NCBI RefSeq assembly: GCF_054482525.1
Contig: NZ_CM137006.1
Length of the DNA: 64,000 bases
Direction: 5' to 3' (one strand)
The notes under the pieces are model-generated. The model did no database searches, was not told where the DNA came from, and saw only the letters and a list, made by a program, of their open reading frames with translations. The position numbers and the translations under genes are program-made. Of this stretch, positions 2,744 to 3,382 are shown piece after piece (position 1 is the stretch's first letter; every line of letters begins with the position of its first letter).

Positions 2744-3181
2744 TCAAACCATCACCAGCGATAACTCTTTGCCAAGCGCCTTAGCCGCAAGCTGGACGGC
2801 GTCGATTTTTGTCGCATGGTGCAAGTTAAATAGGCGAGTAATCTCCTGTTTAGGTTTGCCAATTCGCCTGGCTAACTCTTGCTGAGTGATTTCTGACTGT
2901 AAAAAAGCATTTAACAGCAATACTTTAGAGGCGACGCTCAAAGGCACTTCAATAAAGTGATCGTGACTATTTAATGGCGAAGGTAAAGGGATAAGCTCGT
3001 TATCTTCAAAATAAAAATCAAATGCGGTCAGTAAAGCATCTTTTGCCGCTTCCATCGCTTCAGCGACAGTTTCGCCCTGCGTCAACGCTTCAGGGATATC
3101 CACAAAAGAAACCATATAACCGCCTTCCGGCGCGGGTGTAAGAGTGACGGGATAACGCATAATTTCGACTGTCTCTCGCAT
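2744..3181 (-). CDS. hicB: HicB antitoxin (type II toxin-antitoxin)
   Basis: 145-aa ORF MRETVEIMRYPVTLTPAPEGGYMVSFVDIPEALTQGETVAEAMEAAKDALL...; a 138-aa form from the internal Met (start 3160) is an alternative. Sits 24 bp downstream of hicA. Confidence 0.9.
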   Translation of the reverse strand: MRETVEIMRYPVTLTPAPEGGYMVSFVDIPEALTQGETVAEAMEAAKDALLTAFDFYFEDNELIPLPSPLNSHDHFIEVPLSVASKVLLLNAFLQSEITQQELARRIGKPKQEITRLFNLHHATKIDAVQLAAKALGKELSLVMV

Positions 3182-3205
3182 GTCATTAACCTTTTTAATT
3201 GGCGA

Positions 3206-3382
3206 TTAACTCAAACCGAGTTGTTTCAGAATAGCTTTATGCAAGGGTTCTTTAATCTCTTCGCTGGGGAGACGCGGCATGACACTGCGCCTCCCGTGAA
3301 AACTGAGTTTTAAATGGTTGCTGCCATTCGCTACATCGACGCCCTGAGATTCGAGCCAACGTCTGAACTCGCTTTGTTTCAC
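3206..3382 (-). CDS. hicA: HicA mRNA-interferase toxin, GTG start
   Basis: Not in the ORF track (58 aa, GTG start). Hand translation of the reverse complement: VKQSEFRRWLESQGVDVANGSNHLKLSFHGRRSVMPRLPSEEIKEPLHKAILKQLGLS, stop at 3206-3208. Confidence 0.85.
   Translation of the reverse strand: MKQSEFRRWLESQGVDVANGSNHLKLSFHGRRSVMPRLPSEEIKEPLHKAILKQLGLS

What the first reader, a model, noticed from the sequence alone, without database searches (positions are those of the whole stretch)
2744..3382. hicAB toxin-antitoxin module with a GTG-initiated toxin gene
hicA (58 codons, GTG start) sits 24 bp upstream of hicB. The toxin gene is below typical ORF-calling thresholds and uses a non-ATG start, so automated annotation often misses it. 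It is a known module, flagged for completeness because it is the one defence-type element in the window.
Basis: partly seen in the sequence, partly recalled or inferred. Interest (0 to 1): 0.25.

Follow-up and report, generated by a model that had tools for sequence, protein, structure and literature searches.

The report
Known E. coli hicAB toxin-antitoxin locus
This is the well-studied chromosomal hicAB toxin-antitoxin pair of Escherichia coli at its usual place in the genome; it is ordinary, except that the toxin gene is a rare allele with a change at a highly conserved histidine.

Summary
On the minus strand, a 58-codon GTG-initiated hicA (3206..3382) lies upstream of hicB (2744..3160 in RefSeq; the ORF runs to 3181). 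The window is E. coli chromosome, close to strain PCN033, with the K-12 gene order ydcR-hicB-hicA/yncJ-rlhA. HicB is 100% identical to K-12 HicB (PDB 6HPB, 6U0I). HicA is 53/58 identical to K-12 HicA (6HPB_A, E 4e-31). So this is the already characterised toxin-first type II module: an mRNA interferase plus an HTH antitoxin/repressor.

Three side claims fail or need qualifying:
- The 24-bp gap applies only to the 145-aa ORF. RefSeq uses a 138-aa HicB, giving 45 bp.
- Annotation does not miss the gene. It is called in every RefSeq record listed.
- It is not the only toxin-antitoxin element in the window. A hokB/sok type I module sits at 18705-19000.

One small surprise is the HicA allele (R27S, H38L, R48H). 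It occurs in 3 of 5,426 complete E. coli genomes, falls below Pfam's HicA cut-off (24.2 vs 27 bits) and is named 'hypothetical protein'. H38 is His in 63/69 family representatives. However, the equivalent H40A mutant of gonococcal HicA stays toxic, so loss of function is not established. Low interest; already known.

The parts
3206..3382 (-). hicA, 58 codons, GTG start; mRNA-interferase toxin. Rare allele with R27S, H38L and R48H relative to the nearest common allele, plus C40S and D41E relative to K-12.
   Evidence: ORF list. 53/58 identity to PDB 6HPB_A, E 4.4e-31. Pfam PF07927 E 3.6e-5, 24.2 bits. RefSeq CDS WP_000813798.1 on identical DNA. Allele comparison.
3387..3392 (-). Shine-Dalgarno-like GGGAGG, 4 nt upstream of the hicA GTG
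   Evidence: Read directly from the sequence. Identical in K-12. A GGAGG + GTG arrangement is also present in the Arsenophonus homologue.
2744..3160 (-). hicB, 138 codons as annotated in RefSeq; antitoxin and transcriptional repressor (N-terminal HicB-like partial RNase H domain, C-terminal HTH)
   Evidence: 100% identical to PDB 6HPB_B. Pfam PF15919 32.8 bits and PF01381 31.4 bits, both above cut-off. RefSeq CDS WP_001270286.1.
3161..3181 (-). Seven in-frame codons (MRETVEI) that would extend HicB to 145 aa if the upstream ATG is used. The true start is unresolved.
   Evidence: ORF list. The 145-aa form was crystallised as 6U0I and the 138-aa form as 6HPB. Homologues align from residue 7-10 onward. 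The better SD-like AAGG lies 8 nt before the upstream ATG and resembles the SD context of the Arsenophonus hicB start.
3415..3432 (.). Perfect 7+7 inverted repeat GTAAACA-N4-TGTTTAC; candidate hicO operator for HicB
   Evidence: the repeat finder I1. Unchanged from K-12. The operator assignment is inferred from the published description of a palindromic hicO at promoter P2, close to the hicA start.
3401..3409 (-). Extended -10-like element TGaTATACT; candidate promoter P2. The inferred transcript start is near 3393-3394, right at the hicA SD.
   Evidence: Read directly from the sequence. [quoted passage not shown] Not found by the consensus scan, which requires a -35 match.
3433..3603 (-). Remainder of the hicA-yncJ intergenic region. 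It is expected to hold promoter P1 with its CRP-S site. The best CRP-S-like 22-mer is 3518-3539 (12 of 20 specified positions), which is weak.
   Evidence: The 220 bp upstream of hicA differ from K-12 at 5 positions. P1/CRP-S is taken from the literature. My own scan is only suggestive, and the pattern search was uninformative.

Best explanation
The segment is the chromosomal hicAB operon of Escherichia coli, a toxin-first type II toxin-antitoxin module at its canonical locus between ydcR and yncJ/rlhA.

How the module works, taken from K-12 experiments and carried over by near-identity:
- HicA is a 58-aa protein with a dsRBD-like fold. It cleaves mRNA independently of translation, using a catalytic histidine (His23, retained here).
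- HicB binds HicA through its N-terminal partial RNase H-like domain and masks the active site.
- HicB dimerises through its C-terminal HTH domain, binds a palindromic operator (hicO) and represses promoter P2.
- An upstream promoter, P1 (CRP-S/Sxy-dependent), makes a transcript that expresses both genes.
- Excess HicA releases HicB from hicO. The short P2 transcript then yields HicB only, which restores the balance.

Shown here: gene identity, gene order, the GTG start, intact domains, and conservation of the operator-like palindrome and the -10 element.

Inferred, not shown: the exact P1, P2 and hicO positions, and whether this strain's unusual HicA allele (R27S, H38L, R48H) is active. I judge the allele probably still toxic.
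For: - The locus and its flanks match E. coli genomes: 5,416 of 5,426 have a match, and 3 are 100% identical, including PCN033. Gene order is the same as in K-12.
- HicB is 100% identical to K-12 HicB, which has been crystallised alone and with HicA. Both Pfam domains score above cut-off.
- HicA is 91% identical to 6HPB_A over its full length, with His23 retained.
- The GTG start and SD are identical to K-12 and conserved in the Arsenophonus homologue. In 28 of 68 family representatives the aligned first residue is V or L, which points to non-ATG starts.
- The 7+7 palindrome sits 33-50 bp upstream of the GTG and is followed by TGaTATACT. This fits the published P2/hicO description.
- The residue equivalent to H38 (H40A) is dispensable for toxicity in gonococcal HicA. 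The equivalence of the two positions is supported by the profile alignment to PDB HicAs.
Against: - This HicA allele scores below Pfam's gathering threshold (24.2 vs 27) and has no NCBIfam hit.
- In a single-substitution scan, H38L alone costs 7.3 bits, more than removing the catalytic His23 (5.2 bits).
- H38 is His in 63 of 69 family representatives. It lies in the beta3-alpha2 loop, close in space to the catalytic His.
- Two arginines on a protein whose RNA-binding surface is positively charged are also lost.
- hicA is often degraded in E. coli. About 811 of 5,426 genomes carry only a partial hicA match (the example examined has a frameshifted pseudogene next to an intact hicB), and 1,173 have no hicA match. 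A weakened toxin here would therefore not be out of pattern.
- No activity was or could be measured.
Confidence: 0.9

Rival explanations
1. The module is decaying. This lineage's HicA (R27S, H38L, R48H) is an attenuated or inactive toxin, and the locus effectively supplies only HicB, as an autoregulator or orphan antitoxin.
For: - H38 is nearly invariant: 63/69 representatives, and His at the aligned position in the T. thermophilus, S. pneumoniae and B. pseudomallei structures.
- H38L lowers the Pfam score by 7.3 bits, against 5.2 for H23A.
- The residue lies near the catalytic His in space.
- Against K-12, hicA has 5 nonsynonymous and 5 synonymous differences, while hicB has 0 and 7. Fisher p = 0.044.
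- hicA matches only partially in about 811 genomes (a pseudogene beside intact hicB in the example examined) and has no match in 1,173.
Against: - Gonococcal HicA-H40A, at the same position, is as toxic as wild type when induced.
- About 9% of natural homologues lack His at this position.
- The catalytic His23, the reading frame, the SD and the start codon are all intact.
- The allele is stably maintained: the exact sequence occurs on 407 public contigs.
- The count of 3 nonsynonymous to 2 synonymous changes against the nearest allele is too small to show relaxed selection.
Confidence: 0.25
2. The module's main role is anti-phage defence (abortive infection through HicA release), as the reader's label 'defence-type element' implies.
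For: A bioinformatic survey proposes defence roles for HicA-domain systems on the basis of their genetic contexts (PMC10865869).
Against: - PADLOC-DB has no model matching HicA. HicB gives only weak HTH-type matches to candidate systems, with E 0.002 or worse.
- The locus sits among core metabolic genes, not in a defence island.
- No paper read here reports phage protection by chromosomal E. coli hicAB. Published regulation links it to CRP/Sxy and amino-acid starvation.
Confidence: 0.1
3. The 58-codon ORF is a chance ORF, and only hicB is a real gene.
For: The ORF is short, has a non-ATG start, scores below the Pfam threshold and has no NCBIfam hit.
Against: - 91% identity over the full length to a crystallised, experimentally toxic protein.
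- Conserved with its GTG start in a 50%-diverged plasmid homologue that is also paired with a hicB.
- 74 family representatives with E at or below 1e-3.
Confidence: 0.01

Closest known systems
Escherichia coli K-12 hicAB (b4532/b1438; PDB 6HPB, 6HPC, 6U0I)
   Same: - Same chromosomal locus and neighbours (ydcR, yncJ, rlhA).
- HicB is 100% identical.
- Same hicA length, GTG start and SD.
- Identical 45-bp hicA-hicB spacer.
- Same operator-like palindrome and -10 element.
   Different: - HicA differs at 5 of 58 residues: R27S, H38L, C40S, D41E, R48H.
- S40/E41 are common non-K-12 variants. S27/L38/H48 are specific to a rare lineage: 3 of 5,426 complete genomes.
- Pfam score is 24.2 bits here against 30.9 for K-12.
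Neisseria gonorrhoeae FA1090 and Burkholderia pseudomallei HicAB (RHH-type HicB)
   Same: - Same HicA fold family, with the catalytic His at the start of beta2.
- A second conserved His (residue 40 in their numbering, 38 in E. coli) lies in the beta3-alpha2 loop, close to the catalytic His.
   Different: [quoted passage not shown] E. coli HicB uses an HTH domain and forms dimers.
- In these systems His40 was changed only in the laboratory (H40A, still toxic). Here the change, to Leu, is natural.
Arsenophonus nasoniae plasmid paNv_CAN4 hicAB
   Same: 58-aa HicA with a GTG start and GGAGG SD, followed by a 138-aa HTH-type HicB in the same order.
   Different: - Plasmid-borne, beside a transposase.
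- About 50% (HicA) and 43% (HicB) identity.
- 65-bp spacer.
- Keeps His at the position equivalent to H38.

Membership tests
HicA toxin family (Pfam PF07927) | Score at or above the curated Pfam gathering threshold (27 bits) | tested here: not met
   24.2 bits, E 3.6e-5. K-12 HicA scores 30.9 and Ecol_316 HicA 32.7. The shortfall comes from H38L alone, which costs 7.3 bits. NCBIfam gives no hit.
HicA toxin family (Pfam PF07927) | Direct homology to an experimentally characterised HicA across the whole dsRBD-like domain | tested here: met
   53/58 identical to K-12 HicA, PDB 6HPB_A, residues 1-58 aligned to 1-58, E 4.4e-31. A profile of 30 relatives also finds 1WHZ, 5YRZ_B, 4C26, 9SVK and 6G26.
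HicA toxin family (Pfam PF07927) | Catalytic histidine at the start of beta2 (His23 in E. coli) after the Gly-containing beta1-beta2 turn | tested here: met
   The N-G-S-N-H23 motif is retained. This column is His in 67 of 69 representatives.
HicA toxin family (Pfam PF07927) | Growth arrest or RNase activity on expression, neutralised by the cognate HicB | not testable with these tools
   Requires a wet-lab assay. Uncertain for this allele because of H38L, R27S and R48H.
HicB antitoxin, HTH class (Pfam PF15919 + PF01381) | [quoted passage not shown] | tested here: met
   PF15919 32.8 bits (cut-off 27) over residues 10-74. PF01381 31.4 bits (cut-off 23) over residues 95-141. 100% identity to 6HPB_B and 6U0I_A.
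Type II toxin-antitoxin operon, toxin-first (hicAB) architecture | Adjacent co-directional genes with hicA upstream of hicB, a short spacer, and a palindromic operator in the promoter region | tested here: met
   Gene order and a 24- or 45-bp spacer. 7+7 perfect inverted repeat at 3415-3432. HicB binding to it is inferred from the literature and was not tested.
Recognised anti-phage defence system (PADLOC-DB v2) | Match of the component proteins to a defence-system model | tested here: not met
   HicA, both the window and the K-12 allele, gives no hit. HicB gives only weak HTH-type matches to candidate PDC models, with E 0.002 or worse.

The most novel reading that the evidence does not exclude
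The natural S27/L38/H48 HicA allele of the PCN033-like lineage is functionally altered. The change hits the near-invariant beta3-alpha2 histidine that sits beside the catalytic His23.

Possible effects are reduced RNase activity, altered neutralisation by HicB, or altered HicA-driven derepression of P2. In that case the allele would be an intermediate stage in the toxin decay seen elsewhere in E. coli, where hicA becomes a pseudogene while hicB stays intact. It would also give a natural probe for a conserved residue whose role is unknown, since gonococcal H40A did not affect toxicity.
Probability: 0.2. Interest if true: 0.3.

Novelty: already known. Interest (0 to 1): 0.12.

Why it matters
It matters little for discovery. 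The module, its structure and its two-promoter regulation have been published for E. coli K-12, and this exact allele is already in RefSeq as WP_000813798.1.

Two modest practical points follow:
- A single substitution (H38L) at a conserved family position pushes a genuine hicA below the Pfam cut-off, with no NCBIfam hit. The toxin is then labelled 'hypothetical protein' while its partner is still called HicB. TA censuses that rely on product names or on the Pfam cut-off would score this lineage as having an orphan antitoxin.
- Only about 63% of complete E. coli genomes carry hicA at 80% or more of its length. The allele fits a picture of ongoing erosion of the toxin gene, and it offers a natural variant for asking what the second conserved histidine does.

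Tried and rejected
- NCBIfam scan of HicA, HicB and YncJ: no hits. This says nothing about membership either way.
- PADLOC scan: nothing for HicA, only weak HTH matches for HicB. I therefore did not file the module as a recognised defence system.
- Consensus promoter/terminator scan of 2600-3700: no site upstream of hicA and no terminator-like site. The two promoter-like hits (3186-3159, inside the hicA-hicB junction; 2726-2699, upstream of ydcR) do not exceed the shuffle expectation. I read the P2 -10 by eye instead.
- CRP-S pattern TGCGA-N6-TCGCA with up to 3 mismatches: 291 matches against 314 expected, and none convincing in the hicA upstream region. A 22-mer consensus score gave only a weak best candidate at 3518-3539. 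P1/CRP-S is therefore not localised.
- The primary papers were not held: Turnbull & Gerdes 2017, Jorgensen et al. 2009, Sinha et al. 2009. Regulation is cited from secondary accounts.
- I considered calling the toxin dead because of H38L. I rejected that as the lead explanation after finding that the equivalent H40A mutant of gonococcal HicA remains toxic.
- I considered the 56-aa alternative-frame ORF (3252-3422) as a real gene. It has no Pfam hit, and its conservation among E. coli alleles is uninformative at this level of identity.
- No structure prediction was run. A 91%-identical crystal structure exists, and point-mutation effects are not resolved by such models.

Full report
**What is at the coordinates.** Both genes are on the minus strand. 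The ORF list gives a 58-aa ORF at 3206..3382 with a GTG start, and a 145-aa ATG ORF at 2744..3181. The sequence reads CAGGGAGGCGATGTGAAACAAAGC on the minus strand. That is a GGGAGG Shine-Dalgarno element (3392..3387) four bases before the GTG (3382..3380).

**Where the window comes from.** A 1,051-bp query across the locus matches 5,416 of 5,426 complete E. coli genomes. It is 100% identical to three of them (PCN033, SCU-102, 19KM1776); the next best match is 98.3%. The window is the reverse complement of PCN033 positions about 1,534,406-1,598,405. Through window position 23,905 there are two single-base differences, and at about 23,905 the window lacks a 711-bp IS200/IS605 insertion that PCN033 carries. 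Gene order around the finding is ydcR, hicB, hicA, then divergent yncJ, then rlhA, exactly as in K-12 MG1655.

**Identity of the two proteins.**
- HicB is 100% identical to K-12 HicB as crystallised in 6HPB/6HPC (138 aa) and 6U0I (145 aa plus tag). It has the HicB-like antitoxin domain (PF15919, 32.8 bits) and an HTH_3 domain (PF01381, 31.4 bits), both above Pfam's cut-offs.
- HicA is 53/58 identical to K-12 HicA (6HPB_A, E 4.4e-31, aligned end to end), with the catalytic His23 retained.

This is the known chromosomal hicAB module.

**Mechanism, carried over from K-12 by near-identity.** The following comes from the literature read.
- HicA is a dsRBD-fold mRNA interferase that acts independently of translation.
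- HicB masks HicA's active site with its partial RNase H-like domain.
- HicB dimerises through its HTH domain and represses promoter P2 at a palindromic operator, hicO.
- Promoter P1 carries a CRP-S site, responds to Sxy, and expresses both genes.
- Excess HicA frees P2, whose short transcript yields HicB only.

In the window I find a perfect 7+7 inverted repeat, GTAAACA-N4-TGTTTAC, at 3415-3432. It is followed by an extended -10-like TGaTATACT at 3409-3401. A transcript from that -10 would begin near 3393-3394, right at the hicA SD. [quoted passage not shown] These assignments are my inference. The elements are unchanged from K-12, and the 220 bp upstream of hicA differ from K-12 at only 5 positions. 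I could not localise P1 or its CRP-S site.

1. *The hicB start.* RefSeq starts hicB at the internal ATG (window 3160; 138 aa; 45-bp spacer), both on identical DNA and in K-12. The evidence is split.
   - For the 138-aa form: diverged homologues align from residue 7-10 onward. The Arsenophonus homologue's annotated 138-aa HicB starts exactly at the residue aligned to M8, and the short stretch upstream of it in frame holds no ATG.
   - For the 145-aa form: the better SD-like element (AAGG, 8 nt spacing) precedes the upstream ATG. It also resembles the GAGGTTAAT-ATG context of the Arsenophonus hicB start.
   - Both forms have been crystallised.
2. *'Annotation often misses it.'* hicA is annotated as a CDS in all 70 RefSeq records listed. 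What actually happens for this allele is that the product is named 'hypothetical protein'.
3. *'The one defence-type element in the window.'* A hokB toxin gene lies at 18851-19000 (+) with an Rfam sok match at 18705-18856 (110.6 bits). This is a second toxin-antitoxin module. PADLOC has no model that recognises HicA, so 'defence' is a label, not a result.

**The GTG start is a family trait.** It is not peculiar to this window. K-12 has the same start. An Arsenophonus plasmid homologue with about 50% protein identity has GGAGG followed by GTG AAA CAA AGC GAG. Among 68 family representatives, the residue aligned to the first codon is M in 39, V in 24, L in 4 and I in 1.

**The one unusual feature: the HicA allele.**
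- Relative to the nearest common allele (strain NRZ105019, 5 nucleotide differences), the window allele has three amino-acid changes, R27S, H38L and R48H, plus two synonymous changes.
- The exact gene is in 3 of 5,426 complete genomes. The exact protein is on 407 public contigs and forms its own 90% cluster. It is therefore a real, circulating lineage allele.
- It scores 24.2 bits against Pfam HicA_toxin, below the 27-bit cut-off, whereas K-12 scores 30.9.
- A single-substitution scan shows that H38L alone costs 7.3 bits. R27S costs 1.4 and R48H 0.3. Removing the catalytic His23 costs 5.2.
- H38 is His in 63 of 69 representatives. It aligns with a His in the T. thermophilus, S. pneumoniae and B. 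pseudomallei HicA structures.
- Published structural work places this residue (number 40 in the Burkholderia and Neisseria proteins) in the beta3-alpha2 loop, close in space to the catalytic histidine.

*Against reading this as a dead toxin.* The H40A mutant of gonococcal HicA was as toxic as wild type when induced in E. coli. About 9% of natural relatives lack His at this position. I therefore put the attenuated-toxin reading at about 0.25 and do not lead with it.

**Population context.**
- hicA is present at 80% or more of its length in 3,442 of 5,426 complete genomes.
- It matches only partially in about 811. The example examined, O104:H4, carries a pseudogene 22 bp shorter, annotated as frameshifted with an internal stop, next to an intact hicB that encodes the same HicB protein as here.
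- It has no match in 1,173 genomes.
- hicB is present at 80% or more of its length in 4,216 genomes. The partial matches sampled among the remaining genomes cover only its 3' part.
- Against K-12, hicA shows 5 nonsynonymous and 5 synonymous differences, while hicB shows 0 and 7. Fisher p = 0.044. This is weak evidence on its own.

Together these results suggest that the toxin gene is under looser constraint than the antitoxin gene in E. coli.

**Verdict.** This is a correctly identified, already known module in its ordinary chromosomal setting. The rare HicA allele is a minor curiosity. It has a practical consequence for annotation and a testable, low-stakes functional question. Interest is low.

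Noticed in passing
window 18705-19000 (+): A hokB type I toxin gene lies at 18851-19000 and translates to a 49-aa HokB. An Rfam 'sok' match (110.6 bits) lies at 18705-18856.
   Followed up: partly
window 19416-19479 (+): RydC small RNA, full-length Rfam match (92.5 bits, gathering score 48).
   Followed up: no
window 3252-3422 (-): A 56-aa alternative-frame ORF overlaps the hicA start. Its ATG lies inside the operator-like palindrome, 9 nt downstream of a strong GGAGG (3436-3432). It is kept open (54-64 aa) in the other E. coli alleles examined. A variant in the public database (P0002) fuses this N-terminus (MFTLLIYSAAG) in frame to HicA. It has no Pfam hit. Whether its translation from the P1 transcript interferes with hicA initiation is unknown.
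   Followed up: partly
window 3379-3384 (-): The hicA GTG overlaps an out-of-frame ATG that is followed immediately by TGA (ATGTGA), a one-codon start-stop. K-12 has the same sequence.
   Followed up: no
L004 1501-1655 (E. coli O104:H4 2009EL-2050), and population counts: hicA is a frameshifted pseudogene, 22 bp shorter and with an internal stop, next to an intact hicB in this genome. About 811 of 5,426 complete E. coli genomes show the same kind of partial hicA match, and 1,173 have no hicA match. The partial hicB matches sampled cover only the 3' part of the gene. Only about 63% of genomes carry hicA at 80% or more of its length.
   Followed up: partly
window about 23905: The window lacks a 711-bp insertion present in PCN033, whose annotation places an IS200/IS605 transposase gene there. 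Otherwise it differs from PCN033 by two single bases (13876, 19151) up to that point. The source is therefore a close relative of PCN033, not PCN033 itself.
   Followed up: partly
window 3161-3205 (-): The 45-bp hicA-hicB spacer, which includes the seven optional codons, is invariant among the four E. coli alleles compared. The flanking genes carry 5-10 differences.
   Followed up: no
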